From the sequence record NC_052652.1: a stretch of 64,000 nt of DNA. One strand, 5' to 3'. A program made the position numbers and the translations under genes. This document shows positions 12,821 to 64,000 of this stretch, in pieces. Position 1 is the first letter of the stretch; each line of letters starts with the position of its first letter. The notes beneath the pieces were generated by a model that was not told where the DNA came from, made no database searches, and was given only the letters and a program-made list of their open reading frames with translations. Source of the DNA: Escherichia phage vB_EcoM_PHB05.

Positions 12821-13219
12821 TTACATTACTTTAACACAAAACTCTCGTAAAAGAGTAGCGTCAGTTTCTTCCAACAGGTATTTACCAAGACCAATACCAA
12901 ATCCTATTTCACCACTTTCAAAATGGAGAATTTGTATCTTTTCTCCACCAAGGTTAATTACTTTTGCTTTTCCAGGATTGTCCAAAACATCTCGTATTGT
13001 GTCCTGTAGTAGCATAAGTTCACGTTTTGTGATAGTGGTTTCAGATATCTCTTTGTCTTCTACCCGCACTGTTAAACGGTTGTATCCACCAAAGAGACAT
13101 AGTATTTGAATAAAAAAGGTATTATCTTGAGGTTCAACATCTTTTTTAGTTAGTTCAAGACGATTAGTTTCTCTACTATAGAACGTCTCGACTAAGATTT
13201 TAGAACGATTGTCTGTCAT
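12821..13219 (-). CDS. Hypothetical protein, 132 aa
   Basis: Track ORF in co-directional packed array; no motif recognised. Confidence 0.4.
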   Translation of the reverse strand: MTDNRSKILVETFYSRETNRLELTKKDVEPQDNTFFIQILCLFGGYNRLTVRVEDKEISETTITKRELMLLQDTIRDVLDNPGKAKVINLGGEKIQILHFESGEIGFGIGLGKYLLEETDATLLREFCVKVM

Positions 13220-40346: not shown

Positions 40347-43121
40347 TTAGTTTACCAGTTTATTTATATCTGGTAAAAGATTTATTTCACCTAAGAAATC
40401 ACCTTCACCTTCCTCTAGCCAACTCTCATATGCTTGTGCATGATTATAGTTACCATCAAAAGAATCTGCAACAAATTTTTCTACAGTTTTTCGAGATGTG
40501 CCAGCGCCAAATACACCAAGTTTAATACCATTGATCGGTAAAGTGGTGCTTGTGGGTACTTTCTCTGTTGCAACACGGTTGATATCTATAATCTCCTGTA
40601 CGGTTGTATTCCATTGTAAGCATTTAACACAACGGGTGTGCGCTACATACAGTAGGTTTCGCTCTGCCTCTTCTAGTCCTACCCATTCACCAGTCTTTTT
40701 ATCATAGTTGGAAGGAAAATCATTAGCAACAATAACCTGATCCCACTCCAAACCTTTAGACTTATGTGCTGTAGTCAGTGTGACTTTTGCTGTAGGAGAA
40801 TTTCTATGCGTTCTAAGTGTATGTGCTATAGTGTTTGCCTTACCAGAAACTACAATGTTTAACAAGCGTTTAGCATCTGGATCAGCCTCTGCACACTCAA
40901 CAAATTCATTCCAGTCTGCGTAAGGTAATACAGTTTCATGTTTTACTTTCTCAATATCTCCTCTCCGAAGAGCATTAACACTATCTACCATAGAGATAAA
41001 ATCCCTGGTATCTACGTTAATAATAATTTCTTCCCCATCTGCAATACGATCCATTGCCTCCATAAGCAAGGTTAAATTCTTGCGAAAGATGATAGTGTAA
41101 GGTTTTGTATAGTCTACAACATCTGATTTGTAGCTACCTACTACAGTATCAAAGCCTTTACCAACCAAAGGATGACGCAAAGGTTCTTTATCACTTAAAA
41201 TCATATTCGCAATGTTTGCCACTTTGGGGCCAAAACGGAAGCAAGCAGTTAATGGAAGCTCTGCCCCATACTTAGCTGTTTCAATCATCATATTAGAGCT
41301 ACCTCTAAATTGATAAATGCAGTTATGGCTAAGAATTTCATTGCCAAAGAAGTTAGCAGTATCCTCTACTTCAATATCATAATAGATACCATCACTATCT
41401 ACAATGTCCACAATTTCTTCTGCCGTTACAGTATCACCATCTTTTACCAACACAGACATGCCTTTAAACAAACCCGCTGCCGGAATTAAATTATATTTGG
41501 CAGTGTTCACAGAGGACATGCATTCTTTTAAAGATGCAAACGGAACTATTTCAAGGATCTTTTGTGCAAAACTCAATGCTTCACGATAAGAATTGAAATA
41601 TTTACGTACACGGTAACGACCTTCCAATTTAGCAACACTTACACTTACACCTGCTTCAATGAGTGAAGCATAGATTGGCATTTCACTTTCTGTCCACTCA
41701 AAGCTAACTTGTGTTCCTTTACAACCTTGTGCTCGCAAAGTCACTGTTAACATTTTTCTTGCATCTACTGTACAATTGATGCTGTGCCAATGTGGATAAG
41801 CAAAATGATAATCTTTATCCTCTAAAAGTTTAAAACCATTTTGTCCGAATTGTTCAAAGATATTGTTGATCCTTTCTTGATTAATACCGCGTGAACTTGC
41901 CTCAAATACACAAGTAGGAATGCCATATTGTAAACTGTATGCCATTTCTTTTTCCATAGCAGCTTCACGGTTTTCAACAATATCCAACACCCACAACTTC
42001 TGTGCTTTTTCAGAACGTGTACGTTGCCCCAGTTTAGAAAAACCTTCTTTATCATCGAATTTGTTAGTGATCCCTACTCGGAAACCTAAATCTTTTCTCC
42101 ACATTAGGTATACCACCATCTGATCATCTTTCAGAACATAAGGTGAAGCCCAAATACGATGGTTATGTGTCATATCTAAAGTCTTACCTTTAGCAGTAAT
42201 AATATTCCTACCTTTTGTACGTGTAGATAAAGTTTTATTTGTTACTTTTCTAAATGTAACTTTACCGTTAGAATAAGACTCTACCTTATCACCGATTTGC
42301 AGGTCTTTCATTGTAACCTGACCATTTTCGGTATTAAGTACCGTGTTTTCTGACACACATTGGAATTCATCACCAACTACCACAATTTGTTTGGCAGATT
42401 TAGCATTCCGCAGAATAGACAAGAATGCAGGGTTAACATCCTGGAATTCATCCCCAAAAATAATGTCATAACCAAGATCAGCACCAGACAATTCAAACAA
42501 TTTTACATAGGTGTCATGCGTCATCAAAGTATCTGTGTTAGGGTCAATGCGCTCTCGCCACAATTGTTTTGCATACTTAACTACTTCTGTAATTAGTTTG
42601 TGTTCGTTAATACCTTTTCTTTTAATATCTGCAAGATGTACACTAGGAAAATGTTTACGGCTGATAAAAGGATCATCCGAAAATTCAAACTTACCTACGG
42701 TTTGCTTGATCATTAAACCAATCATAGCACGAGTTAAAAGTGTTTTCCCTCGTTTATCAATAAGATTATTAATCTTAAATTTCTTTGCTATCTCACTACC
42801 TGTACCTGCAACGTTAACATACTGTCCTTCTGGTCGTGACAGTTTTGCACGTAAACGATGATCCAGGAATTGATAGCAAATGGAATGCAATGTACGGCAT
42901 TCTACATTTGGTGGCATCTTACGCCGTGCTTCTTCTGCCATGCTTTTATTGAAAGCTAAGTAAAGAATGCGATCTTCTGTACTGTTAGCCAGCAAATAAA
43001 GTGTTGACGTTTTTCCTGATCCAGATTTAGCTTGGATAGTTAAAAACCGATGATCTGGAAAAGCCTCCTTAATAGCTGTTTGCTCTTCTGTTGGAGTAAA
43101 ACTCAACTCTTTCTTAGCCAT
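40347..43121 (-). CDS. UvrD/PcrA-like SF1 DNA helicase precursor containing an intein in motif III, 924 aa from Met-14
   Basis: Walker A AKSGSGKT, motif II IIFGDEFQD, motif III split as VVVGDEFQ | intein | CIYQFRGSS; start at internal ATG to avoid overlap. Confidence 0.75.
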   Translation of the reverse strand: MAKKELSFTPTEEQTAIKEAFPDHRFLTIQAKSGSGKTSTLYLLANSTEDRILYLAFNKSMAEEARRKMPPNVECRTLHSICYQFLDHRLRAKLSRPEGQYVNVAGTGSEIAKKFKINNLIDKRGKTLLTRAMIGLMIKQTVGKFEFSDDPFISRKHFPSVHLADIKRKGINEHKLITEVVKYAKQLWRERIDPNTDTLMTHDTYVKLFELSGADLGYDIIFGDEFQDVNPAFLSILRNAKSAKQIVVVGDEFQCVSENTVLNTENGQVTMKDLQIGDKVESYSNGKVTFRKVTNKTLSTRTKGRNIITAKGKTLDMTHNHRIWASPYVLKDDQMVVYLMWRKDLGFRVGITNKFDDKEGFSKLGQRTRSEKAQKLWVLDIVENREAAMEKEMAYSLQYGIPTCVFEASSRGINQERINNIFEQFGQNGFKLLEDKDYHFAYPHWHSINCTVDARKMLTVTLRAQGCKGTQVSFEWTESEMPIYASLIEAGVSVSVAKLEGRYRVRKYFNSYREALSFAQKILEIVPFASLKECMSSVNTAKYNLIPAAGLFKGMSVLVKDGDTVTAEEIVDIVDSDGIYYDIEVEDTANFFGNEILSHNCIYQFRGSSNMMIETAKYGAELPLTACFRFGPKVANIANMILSDKEPLRHPLVGKGFDTVVGSYKSDVVDYTKPYTIIFRKNLTLLMEAMDRIADGEEIIINVDTRDFISMVDSVNALRRGDIEKVKHETVLPYADWNEFVECAEADPDAKRLLNIVVSGKANTIAHTLRTHRNSPTAKVTLTTAHKSKGLEWDQVIVANDFPSNYDKKTGEWVGLEEAERNLLYVAHTRCVKCLQWNTTVQEIIDINRVATEKVPTSTTLPINGIKLGVFGAGTSRKTVEKFVADSFDGNYNHAQAYESWLEEGEGDFLGEINLLPDINKLVN
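41322..42359 (-). mobile_element. Intein (about 346 aa) inserted in helicase motif III, with probable endonuclease-sized insert
   Basis: Begins with Cys (CVSENTVL), block B MTHNHRI, C-terminal block GIYYDIEVEDTANFFGNEILSHN followed by +1 Cys; flanking exteins rejoin into a canonical motif III. Confidence 0.7.
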
Positions 43122-53415: not shown

Positions 53416-53631
53416 TATTTTGAAAATTTTTATTTTTATAAAAAGGGGTGTGGGTTTCATGTACGGAAATCCACCCTCTGAATAATATATCCAGAGTAAG
53501 TAGTATTCTATACCCTGTTAATAAAGTATTTAATTTGTTTGTTGGACTATGGTATCTGATCTTTAAAAGGCATACTATCTCTTAACTACTACTTATAACA
53601 GAACAGTAAAATCATTTTTATAAAAAGTACA

Positions 53632-53845
53632 AAATTATTTAAAGTTTTTACAGATTTTTGGATACAAATTTTGAAAATGAAAAGTTCAAGTTTGGTCAAA
53701 ATTATTTAAAGTTTTTGTACGTATTTCTATCCAGATTTTGAAAATGAAAACTTCAATTTTTTAAAAATTCCCCAGTTTATTTAAAGTTTTTTTGCCTTTT
53801 TCCGTAGAAAAATCAAAAATGAAAAGTTCAATTTCGTGTTTTTAT
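53632..53845. repeat. Three tandem direct repeats of about 68 bp (core ATTATTTAAAGTTTTT ... ATTTTGAAAATGAAAAGTTCAA)
   Basis: Core strings TATTTAAAGTTTTT and TTTTGAAAATGAAAAGTTCAA each recur three times at about 68-bp spacing. Confidence 0.6.
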
Positions 53846-53857
53846 GGGTATGCGTAT

Positions 53858-53975
53858 GATAATCATTCTCATTTGTAAATGAGAATCATTATCATTTAAT
53901 TATGTAAATGATAAGCATTCTCACTAAGAGAATGAGAATCATTAGCAAATGAGAATTTTTCTCATTTAGAGAATA
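53858..53975. promoter_or_regulatory. Array of Fur-box-like palindromes (AATGAGAAT C ATTCTCATT and GATAATCATT units)
   Basis: TGATAATCATTCTCATTTGTAAATGAGAATCATTATCATTT... contains several overlapping near-matches to the enterobacterial Fur box GATAATGATAATCATTATC. Confidence 0.45.
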
Positions 53976-54228
53976 ACGCGCAGGGGCGGTGTTTGTCTCG
54001 CGCTCCCGTGTCCCCTCGCCATACAATAAGAATAGCATAACCAACAACAAAAGCAAGCGATTATTTTTATCTTTACATTTCTTTACAAATTTATTTTGGA
54101 CGAGCTACCGGCGATCAACCTTCCAACCAGTGCCCCCTGGTATGTTAGCCCCGCCTTTACGCCGTGGGGGTGGCGTTTCCTCTTCTGTATGTAAAACAGT
54201 ATAAGCCCGATCCCTGGGCTTGTCAAGA

Positions 54229-54495
54229 TTATTTTTTGTTTTCTTGCCAGGAAAGGACACCTAACCAAAAATACATATCGCCCCGCGCCCCTGGCGGGAT
54301 CTTGCTTTCCCCGCCGCCACTGCAAGCCCATAAATAACCATTTACGAACGTATCAAAGTGATCTATCTCTTCCACCTTATGATCGCCCAGGTTGAGAACG
54401 GTTTCAACCTTTAAGCCCGTTGCGCTTGCTACCTGGTGCACCGTGCCGCCTTGCCAGCCCAATGAGTGCATGAGATGTAAAGGAGTATTTGTCAT
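54229..54495 (-). CDS. Early-block small protein (leftward gene of divergent promoter pair), 88 aa
   Basis: Track ORF; preceded on the - strand by a TTGCTA-17-TATTAT promoter, a GC stem-loop and AGAAAGGG RBS, the same cassette layout as the + strand early genes. Confidence 0.4.
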   Translation of the reverse strand: MTNTPLHLMHSLGWQGGTVHQVASATGLKVETVLNLGDHKVEEIDHFDTFVNGYLWACSGGGESKIPPGARGDMYFWLGVLSWQENKK

Positions 54496-54964: not shown

Positions 54965-55025
54965 TTGACACTGAAAAATATTTTGGTAATATATACCACA
55001 TAAGGCGGGGAAATGGTTTCCCGCC
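54965..55025 (+). promoter_or_regulatory. Early promoter (TTGACA -17- TAATAT) followed by conserved leader stem-loop GGCGGGGAAATGGTTTCCCGCC
   Basis: Exact -35 consensus, 17-bp spacer, stem-loop at about 55004..55025, then CAAAGAAAGGG RBS and ATG 55048. Confidence 0.6.
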
Positions 55026-55047
55026 AAATCAAAGAAAGGGTAATGCA

Positions 55048-55410
55048 ATGAGCAAGCAAATCAATACTATCATGTTTAATCTGGTATCTTTCCGCGATGA
55101 CGTGAAAAACCTTTCGCGTGATGCAGTGGATGCACGGATCGAAAGCTATCGCACACAGATCGCAACGTTACCGCTGAAACGTGATCAACATGCCGCTAAT
55201 ATGATGCTTGATGCTATGATTAAAAAGATGATTCAATGTGATCTTACCATGGCTTATGAATATGCTGGCGATCTCTTTGTAACATATAGCAAGCCCGTTC
55301 CAGGTATGAGCACCACGGAAGAATTGCATGCCTTAAATCTGCGACAAGATGCATGGGATAACATGCGCCGTGTTATGGTATGGGTAGAAAGCGGTAAAAT
55401 TTACGAATAA
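55048..55410 (+). CDS. Early small protein, 120 aa
   Basis: Track ORF with cassette upstream. Confidence 0.45.
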   Translation: MSKQINTIMFNLVSFRDDVKNLSRDAVDARIESYRTQIATLPLKRDQHAANMMLDAMIKKMIQCDLTMAYEYAGDLFVTYSKPVPGMSTTEELHALNLRQDAWDNMRRVMVWVESGKIYE

Positions 55411-55416
55411 AAACGG

Positions 55417-55471
55417 TTGACATTGCACTAAAACCTGATAAGCTATCTTAAAGCGGGAATAGTTCCCGCTT
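55417..55471 (+). promoter_or_regulatory. Promoter-like TTGACA plus stem-loop AAGCGGGAATAGTTCCCGCTT
   Basis: -35 exact; -10 weak (TAAGCT); hairpin variant with compensatory changes. Confidence 0.4.
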
Positions 55472-55488
55472 ACATAGGATAAAACTTT

Positions 55489-55635
55489 ATGAAACAATAT
55501 GTAATGAGTATTCACACCAAAAACGGCGCTACTGTTACGACTCCGGCACGGTTTGCACTTGTAAACCGTTGCAAGAGACTAAAACGAGAGTTAAAAAATA
55601 ACCGTGCAACGGGCTTTAAACGCTGGGGAGGATAA
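55489..55635 (+). CDS. Small basic peptide (48 aa), not in ORF track
   Basis: ATG follows the stem-loop and AGGAT RBS; translation MKQYVMSIHTKNGATVTTPARFALVNRCKRLKRELKNNRATGFKRWGG. Confidence 0.3.
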   Translation: MKQYVMSIHTKNGATVTTPARFALVNRCKRLKRELKNNRATGFKRWGG

Positions 55636-55637
55636 TC

Positions 55638-55898
55638 TTGTTTTTTCTAAAAGTTTTTGATAATGTGATCGCTTTTGAACATGCTACAACGTTCGACCTG
55701 GCGAGATACGCTATCAGGTTTAAAGATAATGTTTATCCCCGTGCTGGCGGCGGTTACACTATTTTTAATCATCGCAACGCGCAACTGACTGATATAACTA
55801 ATCCAGGCCCTGGAGTGTATCGCATAGGCTGGCTACCGTCAAAAGACGCTGCAAGCATGTTTAAGGTATGTAAACTACTAACAGAAGAGGCGAACTAG
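55638..55898 (+). CDS. Early small protein, 86 aa (TTG start per ORF track)
   Basis: Track ORF; GGGGAGGA RBS 6 nt upstream of the TTG. Confidence 0.35.
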   Translation: MFFLKVFDNVIAFEHATTFDLARYAIRFKDNVYPRAGGGYTIFNHRNAQLTDITNPGPGVYRIGWLPSKDAASMFKVCKLLTEEAN

Positions 55899-55899
55899 C

Positions 55900-56445
55900 A
55901 TGGGGCGTGAATATGTGATCCAGTCCTGGGTAAAGCATGACGCAAATGATCCGCGCATAATACCAGATGACATGATCGATCACATGGTAGGGTATAGCGG
56001 GGAGCAGATAGGAAATCGAGCGGCAAAGAGCAACGGCAACACCAGGACGAGATCCGTTCGCCCTGGATGGCTGGCGAATGGTAATGCTGACATTGCAAGC
56101 GCCGCAGATCCAAGCGATGACGCTAAAAATAATCCCTTATACAGCATTGATCCGGCTTTTAAGGTGTTGGAAGAGTATCCCGCTAAATTAGCCGCACTAG
56201 ATAAGGCATACGCAGAAAAGCGCATGGCATGGACTGTATACAACACCGCTAAAATGGTGCTAGATGCAAAACTAATTAAAGCCCAGGAGAAGATCAATAA
56301 ACTTGTCACCATAGCGCAAGAGGAAGACCAGGAGGAAGAGGAAGAAATCATGCCTAACCTGGAAGAGGAAGAGATCCAGCCATACACGCCGACAGAAGAG
56401 GAAAAAATACAAGCCTTAAAAAATTATAAAAATTGTATTGTGTAA
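55900..56445 (+). CDS. Early protein with strongly acidic C-terminal tail, 181 aa
   Basis: C-terminus QEEDQEEEEEIMPNLEEEEIQPYTPTEEEKI; coiled-coil middle region. Confidence 0.45.
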   Translation: MGREYVIQSWVKHDANDPRIIPDDMIDHMVGYSGEQIGNRAAKSNGNTRTRSVRPGWLANGNADIASAADPSDDAKNNPLYSIDPAFKVLEEYPAKLAALDKAYAEKRMAWTVYNTAKMVLDAKLIKAQEKINKLVTIAQEEDQEEEEEIMPNLEEEEIQPYTPTEEEKIQALKNYKNCIV

Positions 56446-56448
56446 GGC

Positions 56449-56507
56449 TTGACATATGCAAACAAGCCCCGTAATATGTACCACATAGAGCGGGGCAACC
56501 CCCCTCA
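56449..56507 (+). promoter_or_regulatory. Early promoter (TTGACA -17- TAATAT) plus stem-loop variant (GAGCGGGG CAA CCCCCCTC)
   Basis: Cassette copy immediately upstream of the consensus promoter at 56528. Confidence 0.45.
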
Positions 56508-56527
56508 AAGGTGAAATAAAAAATCAC

Positions 56528-56555
56528 TTGACAACTGAAATCAGTAAGCTATAAT
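56528..56555 (+). promoter_or_regulatory. Consensus sigma70 promoter (TTGACA -16- TATAAT), no leader hairpin
   Basis: Both hexamers are exact consensus; about 37 nt upstream of ATG 56593. Confidence 0.6.
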
Positions 56556-56592
56556 GCTTATATAAATTGAAGCGTTACTAAGGAATAAAATC

Positions 56593-56958
56593 ATGGCTAA
56601 AAATATTAATGTTTCCGCTTATGCTACCATGGCTAACACGGCTAAAATTGAACTGTCCAGCATTGAAGCGGTGCATATTAGCGCCCGTCGCTGGTTTCAA
56701 AAATCTTATGGTAACACTTATTTCTCTTTGATGGTTGACGTTGAGATCGGCGGTAAACTGATTGAAGTCGTTAACGTTCCGTTTCAATATGGTTATGGTG
56801 ATCATTTTGATACCGTTGCCCTAGAAGAGTTTAGCAAGGTTATCAACCTGGAAGGTAAAGACTTTTCAAATTATGCTTACCTTTCCAGTTTTTGCCGTGA
56901 CAATGGGATCGCTGTATACAGCCATGCAAGCGATGTTAAACGTAAAAAAGATCTATAA
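56593..56958 (+). CDS. Early small protein, 121 aa
   Basis: Track ORF with AAGGAAT RBS. Confidence 0.45.
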   Translation: MAKNINVSAYATMANTAKIELSSIEAVHISARRWFQKSYGNTYFSLMVDVEIGGKLIEVVNVPFQYGYGDHFDTVALEEFSKVINLEGKDFSNYAYLSSFCRDNGIAVYSHASDVKRKKDL

Positions 56959-57047
56959 AAAGCATTGACAGCACGAATAAAAAGTGTAAAATGTTTCATA
57001 TCAGGACGGGGAACGGTTTCCCCCTCCTAACAAGGAGAGAAATAAAA

Positions 57048-57230
57048 ATGGCTAAATGCACTATCTGTAAGAAAGAAATAGTATTAGTTCCAAGTGCCCG
57101 TGAACGTGCCGCTAAGTTCGGTGGCAAACCGTCAGACTATACGAAAATGTTTACTACCCATGCAGCTTGCCAGGTAGCAAAACGTTCACAAGAAAGCGTA
57201 GAATTAATGCGTAAACTTTCCAAAAAATAA
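57048..57230 (+). CDS. Early small protein with CxxC...HxxC (possible zinc-binding), 60 aa
   Basis: Start at Met-20 of track ORF 56991..57230, just after stem-loop and AGGAGAG RBS; CTICKK ... HAACQ. Confidence 0.4.
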   Translation: MAKCTICKKEIVLVPSARERAAKFGGKPSDYTKMFTTHAACQVAKRSQESVELMRKLSKK

Positions 57231-57315
57231 TATTGACAAAGTATTTTATTATTATATAATGGTTTACATCGAGAGCGGGAATAGTTCCCGCCTCACTGAA
57301 AAAGAGATTAACATC

Positions 57316-57555
57316 ATGGCTAAATCTAAAATGTACAACGGTCACAAAAATAAAACTCATTGGAATGTAAGCCTTTGGATTAATAACGATCCAGGTTTTT
57401 ATAATATGGCAAAAGAATTTATAGCCGTGAACAACAATAAAGATAACGCCGCGCGTGAAATGATGTCATTACTTAACGAAATGGGCCAAAATACTACGCC
57501 AGATGGCTATAAATTCAGTAAAACCAGTATCCGCGCCGCTATGGTAGGAATGTAA
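57316..57555 (+). CDS. Early small protein, 79 aa
   Basis: Start at Met-20 of track ORF 57259..57555, after the stem-loop; RBS AAAGAGA. Confidence 0.4.
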   Translation: MAKSKMYNGHKNKTHWNVSLWINNDPGFYNMAKEFIAVNNNKDNAAREMMSLLNEMGQNTTPDGYKFSKTSIRAAMVGM

Positions 57556-57564
57556 TAAAAGCAG

Positions 57565-57624
57565 TTGACAACGTTTTTTAATCTGGTATAGTTTATCACA
57601 TAGGGCGGGAAATGGTTTCCCGCC
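57565..57624 (+). promoter_or_regulatory. Early promoter (TTGACA -16- TATAGT) plus stem-loop GGCGGGAAATGGTTTCCCGCC
   Basis: Cassette copy; ATG at 57647. Confidence 0.55.
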
Positions 57625-57646
57625 AAATGAAAGAAAGGTTATCATT

Positions 57647-57874
57647 ATGGCTATCGTTATTGTTCGCGTATCCGGCACGGTTGGAATCTCCCAGGTAGTA
57701 GCAGTTATCACCGAGAAGAAAGGGGATGATCTTCACTCCTCCTTGAATAGCTGGGCGGTCGCTAATTTCGGGCAATGGTCGAGCGTTGAGTATATCGAAT
57801 CCTACCAGGTGCCAACGATTAGCCTAACCGATCTGAATGTTGATCGCTTGTTGTGCCTGGATGGATTAAACTAA
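57647..57874 (+). CDS. Early small protein, 75 aa
   Basis: Track ORF with cassette. Confidence 0.45.
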   Translation: MAIVIVRVSGTVGISQVVAVITEKKGDDLHSSLNSWAVANFGQWSSVEYIESYQVPTISLTDLNVDRLLCLDGLN

Positions 57875-57961
57875 AAATAATCTTGACAAGATAACTAAAA
57901 TCAGTAAAATGTAATGCATAGGGCGGCAATAGTGCCGCTCATAGTAAGAGAGATTATCAAA

Positions 57962-58177
57962 ATGGCTAATATCCGCACACTGTTAAAAAATGCAAGTCAA
58001 GTTTTATTTTCAGATGACGAGTATTTCAACAAAGACATTACAGGCGTGAAAAATTTAAAAGACGTGAAGGATGTTATCGGTATCCGTGGATCTTTACGTA
58101 AAGGTGACATATACGGTAACAAGGTGCAATATAAACTATCAAAAGATTATGATTTTACTTTGACAATTATTTCATAA
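57962..58177 (+). CDS. Early small protein, 71 aa
   Basis: Start at Met-17 of track ORF 57914..58177, after promoter TTGACA (57883) and stem-loop GCGGCA ATAG TGCCGC. Confidence 0.4.
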   Translation: MANIRTLLKNASQVLFSDDEYFNKDITGVKNLKDVKDVIGIRGSLRKGDIYGNKVQYKLSKDYDFTLTIIS

Positions 58178-58266
58178 AACTACTTGCAAACCTGGTAAAA
58201 TAAAGTAAACTATATTCATTAAGGCGGTGGAATAGCCCACCGCCTAACAAAGAGAAGAGGAAACAT

Positions 58267-58437
58267 CATGATCACTTTCGCTACCCGTGAAGCCGCTCGC
58301 AACGTTGCACGTAAAGTTAACGCCGCCAACCTAGGCGCTACGCTTAAAGCCCCGGTGAAAGATGAATCAGGAAAATGGATCTTTCCTGGTCTGCGTCACG
58401 CTGATAAGCTGGGGACATTAACGTTAAAAAATAAATA
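58267..58437 (+). CDS. Early small basic protein (56 aa), not in ORF track
   Basis: Follows stem-loop GGCGGTGG AATAGC CCACCGCC and RBS AGAGGAAAC; frame checked start to stop. Confidence 0.35.
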
Positions 58438-58569
58438 ATATCCGCTTGACAGTAGCATCATTTATAAGTAAAGTAACAACAACGGCGGGAAAATTATTGG
58501 TTATATATTGCAAGCATGATCATAACTTTAGCAAAATATCATAAAGTAGCGTAATTAAGAGGAAGAAAC

Positions 58570-58707
58570 ATGAACGCATCACAGCAGATCGAAAAATTCA
58601 ACCGCAGCAAGGCGCGTAAAGATTGGAACGAAGAGATCACCAAAAAAGGTGACAAGCGGAACAAAACAAAGAGAGATCGCAGCACAAAAAGATACTGGAA
58701 CGAATAA
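58570..58707 (+). CDS. Small highly basic peptide (45 aa), not in ORF track
   Basis: RBS AAGAGGAAG then ATG; K/R-rich translation MNASQQIEKFNRSKARKDWNEEITKKGDKRNKTKRDRSTKRYWNE. Confidence 0.3.
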   Translation: MNASQQIEKFNRSKARKDWNEEITKKGDKRNKTKRDRSTKRYWNE

Positions 58708-58710
58708 CAA

Positions 58711-58737
58711 AAAAAGGGCGCAATAAGCGCCCTTTTA
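58711..58737 (+). terminator. Rho-independent terminator (AAAGGGCGC AATAA GCGCCCTTTT)
   Basis: 9-bp stem plus T-run. Confidence 0.6.
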
Positions 58738-58826
58738 GCTTATATAGAGGCTTGTTACCCATAGGCAATGGTAACGCCAGGGCAAGCCTATAAATCAACG
58801 TTAGACGGCTTTACAGGAGCTTTAAA

Positions 58827-59009
58827 ATGAGATTAGAAGAAATAAGCAAGGCACTAGCCCAGGGGCAAAGGTTAAACGCCCGTTATCGTGATCAATATGG
58901 CTTTATAACTAGCGGCGTGATCCTGGGGATTGAAGACAATAAGATTTTTATTGACACGTTGAAAAACGTTGTATATAGTGACAATATAATCTCAATAAAA
59001 CATATATGA
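58827..59009 (+). CDS. Early small protein, 60 aa
   Basis: Track ORF; RBS ACAGGAG. Confidence 0.4.
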   Translation: MRLEEISKALAQGQRLNARYRDQYGFITSGVILGIEDNKIFIDTLKNVVYSDNIISIKHI

Positions 59010-59017
59010 GGCAAGAA

Positions 59018-59419
59018 ATGAAAAAATTATTGATCGCTGGTTTAATCTCTTTTGGCATGGTTGGAACATCTAGCGCGGCGATATCCTCCACAGTAGCAGA
59101 ATTAAGCGCCGTTGATGCAATGGAAAACGTCATGATCATTAATAATGCGATCCCCGATGAAATCATGGAGGATTCACACATGATCGCTTATGGTGCTGTT
59201 ACACAATTAACGGCAAAAATAGATAAATCTATTGTTAATGGCTTAAATGAAGATGTACCATGTGAAATTATTACCAGTGTGCTAACGACTCAAAATTTTA
59301 CGCCGTGGCTAAAAAGTATTCAAAAGGTACACAGCACCGCCGCAGATCGTAGCAATGAAAAACTAGTGTCAGCACTTGCAACGTATACCCTAGCAAAATG
59401 TACCGAGATAAAAGGTTGA
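59018..59419 (+). CDS. Secreted/periplasmic small protein with signal peptide, 133 aa
   Basis: MKKLLIAGLISFGMVGTSSAA signal peptide; start at Met-5 of the track ORF with GAGG RBS. Confidence 0.45.
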   Translation: MKKLLIAGLISFGMVGTSSAAISSTVAELSAVDAMENVMIINNAIPDEIMEDSHMIAYGAVTQLTAKIDKSIVNGLNEDVPCEIITSVLTTQNFTPWLKSIQKVHSTAADRSNEKLVSALATYTLAKCTEIKG

Positions 59420-59466
59420 CAATATAGAAAGCACGTTATAAGATACACACAACAAAGGAGAACTAC

Positions 59467-59769
59467 ATGAACGGCATAGCTAAAACGTTTTTTCTTTTTT
59501 CTGGTGTAAATGATCCATCAATAAAAGTCGATAGTGTAAAAGAAAACAATACTATCACCGCTAAATTGTTTCAAGATGAAACAAATAACGTGCTAATCAT
59601 TAATCTTAAAGAAATAACGAAAGGTTATTATACTATTGCTTACCATGCGATCTATCATGCGGGTACTAGTGAGGAAGTGCAAACAAGCAACAACGAAAGC
59701 GCGGCGCTACCTGGTGATCTGGTGCTGGGCGTTATCAGTTCAATTGTCAATGATTTTTTTAAGGAGTAA
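59467..59769 (+). CDS. Early small protein, 100 aa
   Basis: Track ORF; promoter TTGACA at 59416 and RBS AAAGGAG. Confidence 0.45.
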   Translation: MNGIAKTFFLFSGVNDPSIKVDSVKENNTITAKLFQDETNNVLIINLKEITKGYYTIAYHAIYHAGTSEEVQTSNNESAALPGDLVLGVISSIVNDFFKE

Positions 59770-59773
59770 AACC

Positions 59774-59869
59774 ATGCCCTATTTACATTTATTTTTCGGT
59801 ATCTTATTGACAGGATCTTTTTTCTTCTGTATGCTTGTTTCTATTGTAAACCACGTTTTAAGACATTAA
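59774..59869 (+). CDS. Small hydrophobic peptide (31 aa)
   Basis: RBS AAGGAG 8 nt upstream; MPYLHLFFGILLTGSFFFCMLVSIVNHVLRH; part of track ORF 59636..59869. Confidence 0.3.
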   Translation: MPYLHLFFGILLTGSFFFCMLVSIVNHVLRH

Positions 59870-60098
59870 GGAAACAGCATGAAAATTATTCCCGTACAGT
59901 ATAGCGTAATAAATCCAGCATATGAGGAAGGAAGGAAAACAAGCATGGCTTTATGTTGTATTACTACTATAGCCATGTTATTATATATTGTGTTTTAATA
60001 GGTTTTATAGTTGTACGCTTTAAAGGCTTGACAATTTTTTGTTATGCTTTAAAATATATCTTGAAAACGGCAAAGGCCGCAAACAAAAGGGTAAAATT

Positions 60099-60422
60099 AT
60101 GAAATCTGTGATCGGTGTTTATTTGGATAACTCTGATTTTTTCTATCATCGTGCGCGTTTCCTTGATGCGATTGAAATGATAGAATCAGGCTTTAAAGAG
60201 TATCGCCTTGCACATGATGACCTGGAAGCATTACAGGGCAATAGTGTTTTTACATTGCAAGCTAAAGCACTATGTAAAAGCCGGATCGACATTGCGAGCA
60301 AAAAGATAGAACGCGGCATGTCCTGGTTACGCACCGCAGAAATTAACATGGGGCAATGGTACGGCGAAAACTTAGAAAATAAACTCACTTTTGTAAATGT
60401 AGAAAATATTAAAGATTATTGA
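60099..60422 (+). CDS. Early small protein, 107 aa
   Basis: Start at Met-21 of track ORF 60039..60422; promoter TTGACA at 60028. Confidence 0.4.
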   Translation: MKSVIGVYLDNSDFFYHRARFLDAIEMIESGFKEYRLAHDDLEALQGNSVFTLQAKALCKSRIDIASKKIERGMSWLRTAEINMGQWYGENLENKLTFVNVENIKDY

Positions 60423-60485
60423 TTGACAGCACACCTGATAAGTAATATATTGTATCTCATAGAGCGGGGAAATGGTTTCCCCGCC
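60423..60485 (+). promoter_or_regulatory. Early promoter (TTGACA -17- TATATT) plus stem-loop GCGGGGAAATGGTTTCCCCGC
   Basis: Cassette copy; ATG at 60505. Confidence 0.55.
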
Positions 60486-60504
60486 TTAACAGAAGAGATA
60501 AGAT

Positions 60505-60789
60505 ATGAAGATCACAAAAGCACTTTCCAACTATGCAGCACGTCGCGGCTTATGCTTATCCGTTGAAAACTTAGAGAAAGAAGATTTTTTGTGCTTTTGG
60601 GAGCTTGAGAATGATAATGAGTGGATCTTCTCTTATTCTATCTGCAAAGATCAAAATGGTTGCTTGTTAACCTGGCGCGGTAATATCTATTTGCCGGAAG
60701 AAATAAAACAAGAATTACCAGGCACGATCATGACTGAGAAACAGCTTAAGGAAGTGATCAATTTTGTAGGGCAAAACATTAAAAAATAA
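60505..60789 (+). CDS. Early small protein, 94 aa
   Basis: Track ORF with cassette. Confidence 0.45.
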   Translation: MKITKALSNYAARRGLCLSVENLEKEDFLCFWELENDNEWIFSYSICKDQNGCLLTWRGNIYLPEEIKQELPGTIMTEKQLKEVINFVGQNIKK

Positions 60790-60873
60790 TTTGACAGTAG
60801 GCAAACAACGTAGTAAAGTTTACCACATAGGGCGGGAAATGGTTTCCCGCTCACAGCAGAAGAGAAACAAATC

Positions 60874-61044
60874 ATGATCCCGACTATGTTTTACGTATCG
60901 CGCAAAGGTCACAATATTTTTTGGTCTGAAGATTTAAATGAAGCCATGACGTTTGCCCGTGATCGTGTTGCTATCGGTGGCGTTAATATTACCGTAACCG
61001 ATGAAAACGGCATTGAATACTATAACGGCGACGATGAAGAGTAA
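60874..61044 (+). CDS. Early small acidic protein (56 aa), not in ORF track
   Basis: Follows promoter TTGACA (60791) and stem-loop GGCGGGAAATGGTTTCCCGC; frame checked. Confidence 0.35.
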   Translation: MIPTMFYVSRKGHNIFWSEDLNEAMTFARDRVAIGGVNITVTDENGIEYYNGDDEE

Positions 61045-61092
61045 TTAATAAGGCGGGGGGAGTATTCCCCGCCATCAATAAAGAGGTAAATC

Positions 61093-61401
61093 ATGAAAAT
61101 ATCTTTGGACGTTGCAATCAAGGCCATCGAATCCGGTTACACCCTGGTAAAAGATGATAAGGCTAAAATAGTGCATCATGTTAACAAGGAAACAGGCGAA
61201 AGCATGATCACATATAAAGCCGCCTATTTTCTCCAATCAGTAGCAGATCCGCGCGTACAACGCCAGGTTACGGCGGCTATTGCTAAAAAATTATGTGCTT
61301 TACAGGGTACAAGTTTTAACGAGATCCCGCCGTGTTTTGACTGGGCGAGCTTGAAAAATAGTTTGACAATATGCGGTTATCTGGTAATATATACCACATA
61401 A
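61093..61401 (+). CDS. Early small protein, 102 aa
   Basis: Track ORF; preceded by stem-loop GGCGGGG GGAGTA TTCCCCGCC and AGAGG RBS. Confidence 0.45.
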   Translation: MKISLDVAIKAIESGYTLVKDDKAKIVHHVNKETGESMITYKAAYFLQSVADPRVQRQVTAAIAKKLCALQGTSFNEIPPCFDWASLKNSLTICGYLVIYTT

Positions 61402-61423
61402 GGCGGGGAAATGGTTTCCCGCC
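61364..61423 (+). promoter_or_regulatory. Early promoter (TTGACA -17- TAATAT) plus stem-loop GGCGGGGAAATGGTTTCCCGCC; promoter lies inside the 3' end of the preceding ORF
   Basis: Cassette copy nearly identical to the one at 54965. Confidence 0.55.
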
Positions 61424-61441
61424 AGAATAGAGAGAACTAAA

Positions 61442-61546
61442 ATGATTATTCTTACCATGATGTGCGCGGCGGTTATTATTCCTTTGATAACGCTTATTGT
61501 TTCTGAGATCGATGATCTTCTCTTTGAAAGAAGTTTAAAAAAGTAA
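61442..61546 (+). CDS. Small hydrophobic peptide (34 aa), not in ORF track
   Basis: MIILTMMCAAVIIPLITLIVSEIDDLLFERSLKK; follows cassette and RBS AGAGAGAA. Confidence 0.3.
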   Translation: MIILTMMCAAVIIPLITLIVSEIDDLLFERSLKK

Positions 61547-61626
61547 TTGACAACGGCTAATAAGCTGATAATATGTATCACATAGGGCGGGGCAATAAGG
61601 CAACGCCCACTAATGAGGGTAGCATC

Positions 61627-61731
61627 ATGTTAGAGAAAATTTTCACGGTTGTAATAGTGGGCCTGGCGTTATCGGTTGGAGTGATTGCAACTATGGCTAA
61701 CATGATCCTATCTTCCCACGGTATCGGCTAA
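61627..61731 (+). CDS. Small hydrophobic peptide (34 aa), not in ORF track
   Basis: MLEKIFTVVIVGLALSVGVIATMANMILSSHGIG; follows promoter TTGACA (61547) and stem-loop. Confidence 0.3.
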   Translation: MLEKIFTVVIVGLALSVGVIATMANMILSSHGIG

Positions 61732-61745
61732 AAGAGAAACACAAC

Positions 61746-62132
61746 ATGAAAACAGAAATCATTATTGAAATCATCAACGGTTATAAAGAAGCCTTTATTT
61801 TTGCTGAATCAGCAAGGGATCATGAAGGTAATTTTATTGATAACTTAGACGATTATGATTTTTCAGATCAAGCCCATCAACGGATCATTAATGACGTAGC
61901 GGCTTATTGTGATGCCAATGATGCTGCTATCTCTGAGGCAATGAGCGACGGCGCAACAGCAAACCAGATCGGGAATGATTTACATTTTACCCGTAACGGT
62001 CACGGCGTAGGTTTTTGGGATCGCCCTGAAATATACACTACTAACACCGCCAACCGCCTAACAAATGCAGCTAGATTAATGCCATCGGTGCATGCTTACA
62101 TTGGTGAAGATAATTTGATTTATATTGAATAA
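61746..62132 (+). CDS. Early small acidic protein, 128 aa
   Basis: Track ORF. Confidence 0.45.
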   Translation: MKTEIIIEIINGYKEAFIFAESARDHEGNFIDNLDDYDFSDQAHQRIINDVAAYCDANDAAISEAMSDGATANQIGNDLHFTRNGHGVGFWDRPEIYTTNTANRLTNAARLMPSVHAYIGEDNLIYIE

Positions 62133-62138
62133 AAAGTG

Positions 62139-62197
62139 TTGACACCGATCCCCAATATGGTATTATTTACCACGTAGGCGGGAAATGGTTTCCCGCC
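62139..62197 (+). promoter_or_regulatory. Early promoter (TTGACA -17- TATTAT) plus stem-loop GGCGGGAAATGGTTTCCCGCC
   Basis: Cassette copy; ATG at 62222. Confidence 0.55.
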
Positions 62198-62622: not shown

Positions 62623-62653
62623 AGAAAGGGGCGCACTAAGCGCCCTTTTTTGT
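62623..62653 (+). terminator. Rho-independent terminator (AAAGGGGCGC ACTAA GCGCCCTTTTTTG)
   Basis: Perfect GC stem and T6 run closing the early block. Confidence 0.65.
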
Positions 62654-63189: not shown

Positions 63190-63260
63190 AAATAATAATC
63201 ATTCTCATTTATAGCTGATTATTTATGCAATAAACTGAATAATATAATAATGATAATCAT
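63190..63260. promoter_or_regulatory. Second Fur-box-like element (AATAATAATCATTCTCATTT ... AATGATAATCATTCTT)
   Basis: Same TAATCATTCTCATT core as at 53862; lies on the far side of the early block. Confidence 0.4.
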
Positions 63261-63616
63261 TCTTAACTTAAGGCCATCTAACCTATAAAATAATAAGCTA
63301 TCTAACTAAATTAAAGCTAATTATCTCACCTTTATTTATAACTTACTGTTATTATCTCATTGATAACCTTATATTAAACAACAATAACTAATATAAATCA
63401 TTACCAAACTAAATATAATCTATCTAACCTTTAAAACTATAACTATAATCTATCGAATTGTTGCACAAAGTAACTATTAAATTGTTAGTAACATTACTAA
63501 ATAATTAATATCCTATCTATTTATGATCTAATCTTTACCTTACTATCTATTACCTAAATAATCATTTCATACAATAATTATAACAAGAAATATAATTAGC
63601 AAGCGTATCATTAGCA

Positions 63617-63790: not shown

Positions 63791-64000
63791 TTGGAACATT
63801 GGCTATAATATAAGCTATCCAATAATAAACATAGGGAAAATGACACTGATGATCATAATGCGCCACCTTCCAGGGGGCGCTATGTGAACACAAAGAAACC
63901 TTTCTTGTCAAGAAAAATATTACCATTATTGCGCAAAATTATTTATATATGAATAGATGGTTTTTCATACTATTGCCCCCATATAGCTTATCATTTGTTG

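What the first reader, a model, noticed from the sequence alone, without database searches (positions are those of the whole stretch)
53858..53975. Fur-box-like palindrome array upstream of the early block, with a second copy at 63190-63260
The sequence TGATAATCATTCTCATTTGTAAATGAGAATCATTATCATTT and three further AATGAGAAT / ATTCTCATT units form overlapping near-matches to the enterobacterial Fur consensus GATAATGATAATCATTATC. A second instance of the same TAATCATTCTCATT core occurs at 63196, so the two sites bracket the early-gene block. This may couple early expression or replication to host iron status, or the palindromes may be operators for a phage regulator that happen to resemble Fur sites.
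Basis: partly seen in the sequence, partly recalled or inferred. Interest (0 to 1): 0.7.

Follow-up and report, generated by a model that had tools for sequence, protein, structure and literature searches.

The report
Host Fur-box arrays in virulent phages
A virulent E. coli phage carries clusters of near-perfect binding sites for the host iron sensor Fur at both edges of its early-gene block, and matching clusters occur in phage T5's unexplained "injection-stop" palindromes and in other phage lineages, which suggests these phages use a host iron regulator on their own DNA.

Summary
A Fur matrix learned de novo from 11 E. coli K-12 Fur-regulated promoters gives the phage sites 14-24 bits; genuine sites score 11-21. 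The six best scores in the 64 kb all fall in the two reported loci.

The window is a Justusliebigvirus (phi92-like). The innermost box is kept in 22 of 27 aligned relatives, on seven host genera, and extra copies often sit exactly 29 bp apart. Half-sites vary independently, so these are sites for a dimeric protein, not hairpins. None of these phages encodes a Fur homologue.

The same boxes form T5's annotated palindromes E/G/H/I at the first-step-transfer boundary. They also form arrays in jumbo phage K64-1 and in many uncultured viral contigs.

The boxes do not overlap any of the 18 strong sigma70 early promoters. The main array lies downstream of two conserved leftward promoters and in front of three conserved ~70-bp iterons. 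It is ~10 kb from a reported genome terminus that itself starts at a Fur box.

Best reading: host Fur binds here and forms an iron-dependent barrier or operator in cis at the edge of a terminal early module. Fur binding and the mechanism are inferred, not shown.

The parts
53614..53834 (.). Three ~67-79-bp AT-rich direct repeats (iteron-like). Each contains ATTTAAAGTTTTT and the palindrome TTGAAAATGAAAAGTTCAA.
   Evidence: family D1/D3. Six other genera each have three 61-79-bp repeats at the same place; the sequence has diverged but number and period are kept.
53849..53873 (.). Fur box 1: 53855-53873 TATGATAATCATTCTCATT, 22.8 bits, plus a 6-bp-shifted site at 53849 (14.6 bits).
53872..53896 (.). 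Fur box 2: 53878-53896 AATGAGAATCATTATCATT, 24.3 bits. The 19-mer is identical to T5 palindrome G.
53901..53925 (.). Fur box 3: 53907-53925 AATGATAAGCATTCTCACT, 14.4 bits, plus a shifted site at 53901 (11.9 bits).
53925..53949 (.). Fur box 4: 53931-53949 AATGAGAATCATTAGCAAA, 18.7 bits, plus a shifted site at 53925 (11.4 bits).
53948..53966 (.). Fur box 5: AATGAGAATTTTTCTCATT, 18.5 bits. This is the family-conserved box.
   Evidence: A homologous site of 12-24 bits is present in all 11 isolates compared and in 22 of 27 aligned sequences.
53967..54022 (-). GC-rich conserved block between the predicted +1 of P_D (~54022) and box 5. Invariant GAAT..C..GCA and GGTG.TT. Function unknown.
   Evidence: Invariant columns in A1/A2. 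A second, inverted copy of box plus block lies ~7 kb away in other genera.
54029..54056 (-). P_D, a conserved leftward sigma70-type promoter: -35 TTGCTT (54056-54051), 16-nt spacer, -10 TATTCT (54034-54029).
   Evidence: The TTG of the -35, A-11 and T-7 of the -10, and the predicted +1 all fall on invariant columns of the 27-sequence alignment. The promoter is recovered in all 27 sequences at 7-10 of 12 matches.
54072..54086 (-). Exact CpxR-type motif GTAAAGAAATGTAAA (GTAAA-N5-GTAAA), at -50 to -64 of P_D.
   Evidence: exact in 19 of 27 relatives. Motif definition from PMC9600279. The same motif-promoter-Fur-array order occurs in K64-1.
54087..54190 (-). Ultra-conserved non-coding block that starts at the predicted +1 of P_C. 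Candidate leftward early ncRNA or leader.
   Evidence: 83-85% DNA identity across distant genera. Invariant CCGGCGAT..ACCTT. One covarying hairpin. No Rfam hit. Fold z-score ~0.
54198..54226 (-). P_C, a strong conserved leftward sigma70 promoter TTGACA-17-TATACT (11 of 12).
   Evidence: Conserved at 9-12 of 12 in all 27 relatives.
54229..54495 (-). ORF88, a conserved 88-aa protein of unknown function with an HTH-like stretch.
   Evidence: 150 phage records, none evidently T5-like in the organism summary or the rows shown; phrog_19316.
63191..63209 (.). Fur box of the second gap: AATAATAATCATTCTCATT, 21.0 bits, identical to the E. coli ryhB box.
   Evidence: Conserved in alia, ECGD1 and ukendt.
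63243..63267 (.). Two overlapping Fur sites: 63243 (17.6 bits) and 63249 (13.9 bits).
54965..62166 (+). Context: the early block bracketed by the two Fur loci, with 18 strong TTGACA-16/17-TAnnnT promoters.

Best explanation
The palindromes are high-affinity binding sites for the host ferric uptake regulator Fur. The phage does not encode this protein.

Fur loaded with iron would occupy the array of five sites (53849-53966), plus the sites at 63191-63267 and further sites just beyond the window. The bound protein would act in cis as a barrier or operator at the edges of the early-gene module.

The main array is not placed on the rightward early promoters. It lies downstream of two conserved leftward host-type promoters: P_C at 54226-54198 and P_D at 54056-54029 (P_D is preceded by a CpxR-type motif). 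It lies upstream of three iteron-like repeats. No convincing intrinsic terminator lies in between.

The most likely action is therefore a roadblock. With iron-loaded Fur bound, leftward transcription out of the early module is stopped at the array. When iron is scarce the barrier opens.

Shown: the sequence match, its conservation, its independence from base pairing, its position relative to conserved promoters and repeats, and its recurrence in unrelated phages.

Inferred: that Fur binds, that it blocks RNA polymerase, and what the read-through does. Candidates for the last are activation of a replication origin, entry or expression of the rest of the genome, or antisense transcription.
For: - A de novo E. 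coli Fur matrix scores the phage sites 14-24 bits against 10.6-21.2 for genuine sites, and they are the top six scores in 64 kb.
- The 6-bp offset sub-sites match those of Fur clusters (PMC2189734).
- A box of 12-24 bits sits at the homologous position in all 11 isolates compared, on seven Enterobacterales host genera. Extra copies lie in exact 29-bp register.
- The second gap keeps its boxes in the sister genus despite 70-75% flank identity.
- Half-site position 6/14 is complementary in only 20 of 39 distinct boxes. That equals the expectation for independent half-sites, so the selection is for protein recognition, not pairing.
- No Fur homologue exists in these or T5-like phages.
- The same boxes occur in T5 (17-24 bits), T5-like Gostya9, jumbo K64-1 and more than 100 unrelated viral contigs, often at 28-29-bp spacing. 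No ORF is shared between this early block and the T5 terminal repeat.
- P_C and P_D are conserved in 27 of 27 sequences, with invariant TTG, A-11 and T-7.
- The only minus-strand terminator-like sites between 55200 and 53300 are a hairpin inside the P_C spacer and a weak hairpin inside the array itself.
Against: - No binding or expression data exist.
- The boxes do not overlap a promoter's -35/-10, which is the usual Fur arrangement. Box 5 is at about +57 to +75 of P_D.
- No iron-related gene is nearby.
- Phage half-sites prefer TGAGAAT (59%), whereas E. coli sites mostly use TGATAAT.
- Some metagenomic relatives (L055, L113, L114, L132) hold other sequences in the same slot, and L122 lacks a box. 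The slot can therefore serve other binders.
- These phages propagate in iron-replete media, so an absolute Fur block cannot be essential-negative.
- The sites beyond the window coincide with a reported genome terminus. That fits a packaging, end or injection role at least as well as a transcriptional one.
Confidence: 0.45

Rival explanations
1. Fur binds, but the role is architectural at genome ends and boundaries rather than transcriptional. Like IHF at lambda cosB, Fur bound at or near the terminal repeat and at the inner edge of the terminal early module would help one of several processes: terminase recognition, end protection or circularisation, or staged DNA entry (a T5-like first-step transfer).
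For: - In BME3 (97% identical), the authors' PhageTerm-derived 342-bp DTR (PMC12210895) maps to just past the window end. One boundary lies 3 bp outside a Fur box, and the DTR contains a 23-bit box.
- The main array is then 10.2-10.6 kb from a physical end. T5's Fur-type palindromes are 9.47-9.64 kb from its left end, at the FST shear point and 7.9% nick.
- In uncultured contigs L170 and L189 the arrays lie ~0.7 kb upstream of the large terminase gene.
- E. coli's Qin prophage has a validated Fur site upstream of nohA (PMC2189734). That nohA is a terminase-small-subunit homologue is from my own knowledge.
Against: - The DTR position rests on one paper and on a record whose terminal region is visibly duplicated.
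- Other records of the genus start elsewhere.
- Which end enters first is unknown.
- An intracellular protein cannot by itself stop ejection.
- The main array is 10 kb from the cut site.
Confidence: 0.2
2. The boxes are operators of a phage-encoded protein, or of another host dimeric protein, whose specificity happens to coincide with Fur. ORF88 (HTH-like) and an unidentified early protein are candidates. Fur itself would be irrelevant.
For: - ORF88 sits 260 bp from the array, has an HTH-like segment and is conserved in 150 records.
- Phage half-sites are biased to TGAGAAT.
- The operator slot is occupied by other palindromes in some relatives.
- The site position is atypical for Fur repression.
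Against: - ORF88 is absent from T5-likes and is replaced by unrelated ORFs in GAP31, KpS8 and KP2025, which keep 24-bit boxes.
- There is no blastp similarity between any early-block ORF and any ORF of the T5 terminal repeat.
- A phage regulator and its operator would be expected to co-diverge. Instead the boxes stay at the host Fur optimum in at least three unrelated lineages and include exact copies of the ryhB box.
Confidence: 0.15
3. Fur decoy or sponge. Replicating phage DNA, with about 10 or more boxes per genome, titrates Fur and derepresses host iron uptake and RyhB. That supplies iron for phage ribonucleotide reductase or raises receptor levels.
For: - There are many very high-affinity sites with no adjacent regulated gene.
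- Box number turns over while affinity is kept.
- Multicopy Fur boxes are known to derepress the regulon; this is the principle of the Fur titration assay (own knowledge).
Against: - The position is strictly conserved relative to promoters, iterons and the 29-bp register. A sponge would not need that.
- T5 degrades host DNA early (preprint 10.1101/866236), which makes host derepression pointless there.
- The lytic cycle is short.
Confidence: 0.08
4. The palindromes act as nucleic-acid hairpins (terminators, cruciforms or RNA elements), and the Fur resemblance is coincidental.
For: - They are perfect or near-perfect inverted repeats.
- One terminator-like hairpin is scored inside the array.
- They lie between convergent transcription units.
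Against: - The only frequently variable pair is complementary at chance level (20 of 39), and pair 5/15 is A-G in 10 boxes.
- A 9-1-9 hairpin has a 1-nt loop.
- The probability of hitting the Fur optimum repeatedly in unrelated lineages is negligible.
Confidence: 0.03

Closest known systems
Enterobacterial Fur boxes and Fur-site clusters (e.g. ryhB, fhuA, fecI, fhuF, fepA-fes; Chen et al. 2007, PMC2189734)
   Same: - The same 19-bp 9-1-9 consensus AATGATAATnATTATCATT, with scores at or above genuine sites.
- Overlapping sites offset by 6 bp.
- Clustering of several sites.
- One phage site is identical to the ryhB box.
   Different: - The boxes are not on a promoter's -35/-10 and not next to iron genes.
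- The arrays are in 23-29-bp register, spread over ~120 bp.
- The G-variant half-site predominates.
- The carrier is a virulent phage genome.
- Binding by Fur is untested.
Phage T5 LTR 'repeat region 3' (palindromes E, G, H, I and direct repeat C) at the injection-stop / first-step-transfer boundary (Wang et al. annotation in AY587007; Davison preprint 10.1101/866236)
   Same: - Identical or near-identical 19-mers (17-24 bits).
- A large ORF-free region with many repeats.
- A position ~10 kb from a genome end, at the inner edge of the first-expressed gene block.
- No function has been assigned to them.
   Different: - T5 pairs the boxes with DnaA boxes, nick sites and DRD repeats, inside a 10-kb terminal repeat.
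- This phage pairs them with a CpxR-type motif, two leftward promoters and three 70-bp repeats.
- Its reported DTR is only 342 bp.
- No DnaA boxes lie in its gaps.
- The Davison preprint (the one T5 source read in full) never uses the word iron in its text, and in the one search that returned it, 'Fur' occurs zero times in that paper.
Fur-regulated genes carried by temperate phages and prophages (sitABCD on lambdoid phages, PMC6969025; nohA, ydfK and ynaE in Qin/Rac, PMC2189734; stx1, from own knowledge)
   Same: Host Fur boxes located on phage DNA.
   Different: Those are single operators on the promoter of a cargo gene in lysogens. Here, arrays sit in cis-acting non-coding regions of virulent phages with no cargo gene.
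Phage replication origins made of promoter plus iterons or an AT-rich element (lambda ori with transcriptional activation, T7 primary origin, T4 oriF/oriG; own knowledge)
   Same: Conserved promoters pointing into three phased AT-rich direct repeats with A/T tracts. The repeat sequence diverges between genera while the architecture is kept.
   Different: - No initiator gene has been identified.
- No origin mapping exists.
- A host-regulator array between promoter and iterons is not a feature of those origins.

Membership tests
Fur box (enterobacterial Fur operator) | 19-bp inverted repeat matching GATAATGATAATCATTATC / 7-1-7 TGATAATnATTATCA at the level of validated sites | tested here: met
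   A host-derived PWM gives 14.4-24.3 bits, against 10.6-21.2 (leave-one-out) for 12 E. coli sites. The consensus search finds 4 hits against 0.08 expected.
Fur box (enterobacterial Fur operator) | Clusters of overlapping sites offset by 3 or 6 bp | tested here: met
   There are four pairs offset by exactly 6 bp. The criterion comes from PMC2189734.
Fur box (enterobacterial Fur operator) | Overlaps the -35/-10 of the regulated promoter | tested here: not met
   No promoter of >=10 of 12 matches overlaps a box. Only weak 9-of-12 matches, made by the boxes themselves, are found. Box 5 is at about +57 to +75 of conserved P_D.
Fur box (enterobacterial Fur operator) | Adjacent gene belongs to iron uptake, storage or sparing | tested here: not met
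   The neighbours are NADAR, a CapR/T5orf172 protein, an AAA ATPase and ORFans with no Pfam or PHROG function.
Fur box (enterobacterial Fur operator) | Bound by Fur-Fe2+/Mn2+ in vitro or in vivo, with iron-dependent expression | not testable with these tools
   This needs EMSA or footprinting, a Fur titration assay, ChIP, and delta-fur or chelator infections.
T5-type iss-region palindrome array | Array of the same palindromes in a large ORF-free, repeat-rich region at the inner boundary of the first-expressed terminal gene block | tested here: met
   The 19-mers are identical (window 53878 = T5 9577). The region is ORF-free for 1.2 kb and holds 3 iterons. It lies ~10.2-10.6 kb from the reported terminus, against 9.5-9.6 kb in T5.
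T5-type iss-region palindrome array | Paired DnaA boxes, the IRC/IRD inverted repeats, and location inside a long terminal repeat | tested here: not met
   No DnaA box (<=1 mismatch) lies in either gap. The reported DTR is 342 bp and does not contain the main array.
T5-type iss-region palindrome array | Two-step DNA transfer that halts at this region | not testable with these tools
   This needs blender or shear experiments, or time-resolved entry assays.
Iteron-type phage origin | Several phased direct repeats plus an AT-rich segment with inward transcription | tested here: met
   Three ~61-79-bp repeats are found in seven genera. P_C and P_D point at them.
Iteron-type phage origin | Cognate initiator protein and mapped initiation site | not tested
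   No initiator was identified and no replication data are available.
CpxR-activated promoter | GTAAA-N5-6-GTAAA tandem repeat upstream of the -35 | tested here: met
   An exact match lies at 54072-54086 (-), 15 bp upstream of the P_D -35. It is exact in 19 of 27 relatives. Within the window alone the motif is only weakly enriched: 2 matches against 0.34 expected.
Intrinsic terminator / structural hairpin | Stem maintained by compensatory changes | tested here: not met
   Pair 6/14 is complementary in 20 of 39 boxes, which equals the random expectation. Pair 5/15 is A-G in 10 boxes.

The most novel reading that the evidence does not exclude
Virulent phages of at least three unrelated lineages (phi92/rV5-like, T5-like, K64-1-like, plus many uncultured ones) have independently built arrays of host Fur boxes in a 28-29-bp register. 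The arrays sit at their genome termini and at the inner edge of the first-entering early module, sometimes alongside other host-regulator motifs (a CpxR-type motif here, DnaA boxes in T5).

In this reading the arrays are a general host-state checkpoint. Fur-Fe bound there gates leftward, RNA-polymerase-driven progression out of the early module, and iron status would decide whether the infection proceeds. Progression could mean transcription, origin firing or internalisation of the rest of the genome. The long-unexplained T5 injection-stop palindromes would be the same device.
Probability: 0.25. Interest if true: 0.85.

Novelty: new variant of a known kind. Interest (0 to 1): 0.68.

Why it matters
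Fur boxes on phage DNA are known only as operators of cargo genes in temperate phages. This case is different. Consensus-grade Fur sites form conserved arrays in the cis-acting control and terminal regions of virulent phages, with no iron gene attached.

If Fur really binds, three things follow:
- Lytic phages would read the host's iron state directly through a host regulator.
- The palindromes of the T5 first-step-transfer region, whose function the Davison preprint calls impossible to guess, would get a concrete and testable identity.
- A conserved control module of the therapeutically popular phi92/phAPEC8/rV5 group would be defined: Fur array, iterons, two leftward promoters, a CpxR-type motif and a 125-nt conserved element.

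Iron limitation is the norm in infected tissue, so an iron-gated step could affect how well phage therapy works.

Tried and rejected
- Known RNA family: Rfam at E<=1 over 52-64 kb gave only a sub-threshold STnc320 hit elsewhere.
- Stable RNA structure for the conserved block: z-scores were +0.09 and +0.86 on the two strands. RNAalifold found only one covarying hairpin.
- Captured ryhB promoter: identity is confined to the 19-bp box.
- Phage-encoded Fur: none found among 50,697 phage records for these groups. The query was validated by a 99.3% hit to a Salmonella record that is probably host contamination.
- ORF88 as the binder: it is not co-distributed with the boxes.
- A protein shared with the T5 terminal repeat (A1, A2, dmp and others): no blastp hit at E<=0.01.
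- A rightward Fur-repressed promoter P_A (TTGAAT-17-CAGAAT with the box in the spacer): rejected as a general feature. The would-be A-11 varies (A/T/G) and the -35 is absent in this genus.
- DnaA boxes in the gaps: none.
- Iron-related neighbours: none.
- Literature: six of the nine full-text searches found no paper linking Fur to T5-like or rV5/phi92-like repeats. The phi92 genome paper and the Seo et al. Fur ChIP paper are not held.
- phiWec187 record ends: they fall inside the early block, so they say nothing about the termini.

Full report
**Identity of the window.** The region is 97-98% identical to Justusliebigvirus coliphages (phi92-like, Stephanstirmvirinae) such as W22, alia and PaulScherrer. 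Its right end is 99% identical to ECGD1.

The finding lies in a 1.2-1.6-kb ORF-poor gap. The gap follows the + strand genes for an AAA ATPase, a CapR/T5orf172 protein and a NADAR protein, the last ending at 53415. To the right, 54965-62166 carries 18 strong TTGACA-16/17-TAnnnT promoters, roughly one per small ORFan gene. This is a typical host-RNA-polymerase early block.

The quoted sequences are at the stated coordinates. The classical 19-bp Fur consensus with <=3 mismatches occurs 4 times, against 0.08 expected.

To avoid relying on memory, I fetched 11 upstream regions of E. coli K-12 Fur-regulated genes. I learned a palindromic 19-bp motif from them by EM, starting from about 1000 arbitrary seeds. 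It converged on AATGATAATCATTATCATT and picked the known boxes.

With this matrix and the phage's own base composition as background:
- The window's six best scores are 24.3, 22.8, 21.0, 18.7, 18.5 and 17.6 bits, and all lie in the two loci.
- Genuine E. coli sites score 10.6-21.2 bits when left out of the model.
- Sites of >=14 bits number 9, against 0.32 in shuffles.
- 879 kb of unrelated viral DNA has none of >=16 bits.
- Sub-sites are offset by exactly 6 bp, as in Fur clusters (PMC2189734).
- The site at 63191 is an exact copy of the ryhB box, with no similarity beyond the box.

**Conservation.** Distant blastn and alignment were run on ten isolates from other genera, on E. coli, Salmonella, Klebsiella, Cronobacter, Pectobacterium, Serratia and Erwinia. 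All of them keep a 12-24-bit box at the position of box 5, and one to three more copies often sit at exactly 29-bp spacing.

An IMG/VR scan added 16 more sequences. In four divergent metagenomic relatives the slot holds other sequences; in two of them this is the palindrome TTAGTCACGGTGAGTAA or a near variant. One relative lacks a box altogether. The slot therefore behaves like an exchangeable operator position.

The second gap keeps its boxes in alia, ECGD1 and the sister genus Phapecoctavirus. Two further strong boxes lie just beyond the window's end, at ECGD1 L023 4546 and 4741.

**Protein site or hairpin?** Among 39 distinct boxes of >=16 bits, the only frequently variable symmetric pair (positions 6/14, T or G variant) is complementary in 20 of 39. 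With G at 59% and T at 40%, that is the value expected for independent half-sites. Pair 5/15 is A-G in ten boxes. The selection is therefore on half-site identity, AATGA[T/G]AAT, as for a dimeric protein, and not on base pairing.

**Whose protein?**
- tblastn with E. coli Fur finds no homologue in Stephanstirmvirinae, Vequintavirinae or T5-like phages.
- The neighbouring ORF88 (54229-54495, minus strand) is real and has an HTH-like segment. However, no T5-like record appears among its hits, and unrelated ORFs replace it in GAP31, KpS8 and KP2025, which keep 24-bit boxes.
- No ORF of the early block resembles any ORF of the T5 terminal repeat.

A host factor with conserved specificity across Enterobacterales, namely Fur, is the most economical binder. 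It has not been demonstrated.

**Anatomy around the main array.** Reading leftward on the minus strand:
1. ORF88.
2. P_C, a strong promoter (TTGACA-17-TATACT, 54226-54198).
3. A 125-nt ultra-conserved non-coding block that begins at P_C's predicted +1.
4. An exact CpxR-type motif, GTAAA-N5-GTAAA (54086-54072; definition from PMC9600279).
5. P_D (-35 at 54056-54051, -10 at 54034-54029).
6. A GC-rich conserved block.
7. Fur boxes 5 to 1.
8. Three ~70-bp AT-rich direct repeats (53834-53614).

Both promoters are recovered in all 27 aligned sequences. For P_D, the invariant alignment columns fall precisely on the TTG of the -35, on A-11 and T-7 of the -10, and on the predicted start. Three repeats of 61-79 bp precede the array in every genus examined, although their sequence has diverged.

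No strong promoter overlaps a box. A rightward promoter with the box in its spacer is not supported, because the would-be A-11 is variable. The minus strand has no convincing terminator between P_C and the repeats. In other genera a second, inverted copy of the unit [P_D - GC block - box] lies ~7 kb away, so the two units flank the early block and read outward.

**The same boxes elsewhere.** The 127-bp array matches 346 phage records, including more than 100 T5-like phages.
- In T5 itself the matrix gives 19.0, 24.3, 20.2 and 17.1 bits at 9473, 9577, 9612 and 9618. These are the annotated palindromes E, G, H and I and direct repeat C of LTR repeat region 3. They sit beside the 7.9% nick and the first-step-transfer shear point.
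- The Davison preprint says of these repeats that it is "impossible to guess" their functions. The word iron does not occur in its text, and in the one search that returned it 'Fur' occurs zero times.
- Jumbo phage K64-1 has at least eight sites of 16-24 bits, preceded by a GTAAA-N5-GTAAA motif plus a promoter-like sequence and followed by CAGTACT repeats.
- The exact 19-mer of box 2 occurs in at least 120 IMG/VR contigs. Most are unrelated to these groups. Twenty carry arrays of >=3 boxes, several at 28-29-bp spacing, and two arrays lie ~0.7 kb upstream of a large-terminase gene.

**Relation to the genome ends.** A paper on BME3 (97% identical) reports a 342-bp direct terminal repeat found with PhageTerm (PMC12210895). 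Another paper states that Stephanstirmvirinae genomes end in DTRs (PMC12695924).

The annotated DTR maps to ECGD1 L023 ~4543-4883, which is window-equivalent ~64142-64482. One boundary lies 3 bp outside a Fur box, and a 23-bit box lies inside the repeat. The main array is then 10.2-10.6 kb from a physical end, strikingly like T5's 9.5-9.6 kb. This rests on one record whose ends are visibly duplicated. phiWec187's record ends are uninformative.

**Interpretation.** I put the probability that host Fur binds these sites at about 0.7.

The best-supported mechanism is a cis-acting, iron-dependent protein barrier or operator at the edge of a terminal early module. It would stop leftward transcription from P_C and P_D before the iteron-like repeats (composite confidence 0.45).

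Rivals, in order:
- An architectural role of Fur at termini, in packaging or in staged entry (0.2).
- A different binder that mimics Fur's specificity (0.15).
- A Fur sponge (0.08).
- Hairpins or coincidence (0.03).

The idea of a link to replication or another genome-level process remains open.

**Novelty.** Fur boxes are a known kind, and Fur-regulated cargo genes on temperate phages are known. Conserved arrays in non-coding control and terminal regions of virulent phages were not found in the held literature. Neither was the equation of the T5 palindromes with Fur boxes. I classify this as a new variant of a known kind, with interest 0.68.

Noticed in passing
window 54029-54086 (-): A conserved leftward sigma70 promoter, P_D. 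The only invariant bases there are the TTG of the -35, A-11 and T-7 of the -10, and the +1. An exact CpxR-type motif, GTAAA-N5-GTAAA, lies 15 bp upstream of the -35. The same motif, promoter and Fur-array order occurs in the unrelated jumbo phage K64-1.
   Followed up: partly
window 54087-54226 (-): A 125-nt block that is 83-85% identical across distant genera and starts at the predicted +1 of the strong promoter P_C. It has no ORF, no Rfam family and no significant fold, and only one covarying hairpin (CCAACC..GGTATG). It is a candidate novel early ncRNA or leader.
   Followed up: partly
window 53614-53834: Three ~70-bp AT-rich direct repeats. Every related genus has three repeats of 61-79 bp with GAAAAAATTTTTT tracts at the same place, but with diverged sequence. 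They look like iterons and could mark a replication origin.
   Followed up: partly
L144 (T5 AY587007 9473-9637): T5's annotated palindromes E, G, H and I and direct repeat C, at the first-step-transfer / 7.9% nick boundary, score 17-24 bits with the E. coli Fur matrix. Palindrome G equals window box 2.
   Followed up: yes
L145 (K64-1 AB897757, locus 186-1582): At least eight Fur-matrix sites of 16-24 bits lie in a 1.4-kb ORF-free stretch of a 346-kb Klebsiella jumbo phage, followed by repeated CAGTACT motifs.
   Followed up: partly
L206 10734-10892; L224 3514-3644; L170 3901-3998; L189 2216-2313: Uncultured viral contigs unrelated to the above carry 4-5 Fur boxes in exact 28-29-bp register. 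In L170 and L189 the array lies ~0.7 kb upstream of the large terminase gene.
   Followed up: partly
L023 4543-4883 (window-equivalent ~64142-64482); L266/L267: The 342-bp DTR annotated in BME3 starts 3 bp outside a Fur box and contains a 23-bit box. The BME3 record itself repeats this segment three times, which suggests an assembly or annotation artefact at its ends.
   Followed up: partly
L055 ~13010-13033, L113, L114, L132, L122: In divergent metagenomic relatives the Fur-box slot holds other sequences (TTAGTCACGGTGAGTAA in L055 and a near variant in L113) or nothing, while the downstream module is kept. This looks like operator swapping. The hosts are unknown.
   Followed up: no
window 41791-41819: The only perfect DnaA box in the window (TTATCCACA, minus strand, 41791-41799) directly abuts a weak Fur-like site (41801-41819; 12 bits; 3 mismatches to the consensus). 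Both lie inside a 937-aa ORF, so this may be chance.
   Followed up: no
window ~63985-64000 and L023 4390-4470: Four copies of CTATTTGTTG, spaced ~20 bp apart, lie in the second gap just before the reported terminal repeat.
   Followed up: no
window 54965-62166 (+): Eighteen near-consensus sigma70 promoters (perfect TTGACA, 16-17-nt spacer), one per small ORFan gene. A strong terminator follows the last gene, at window-equivalent ~62623-62651 (seen in ECGD1 at L023 3024-3052).
   Followed up: yes
records MG065639, MG065645, MG065656, MG065689: GenBank records named 'Campylobacter phage' (host C. jejuni) are ~97% identical to this coliphage over the region. The host labels are probably wrong, or the records are contaminated.
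   Followed up: no
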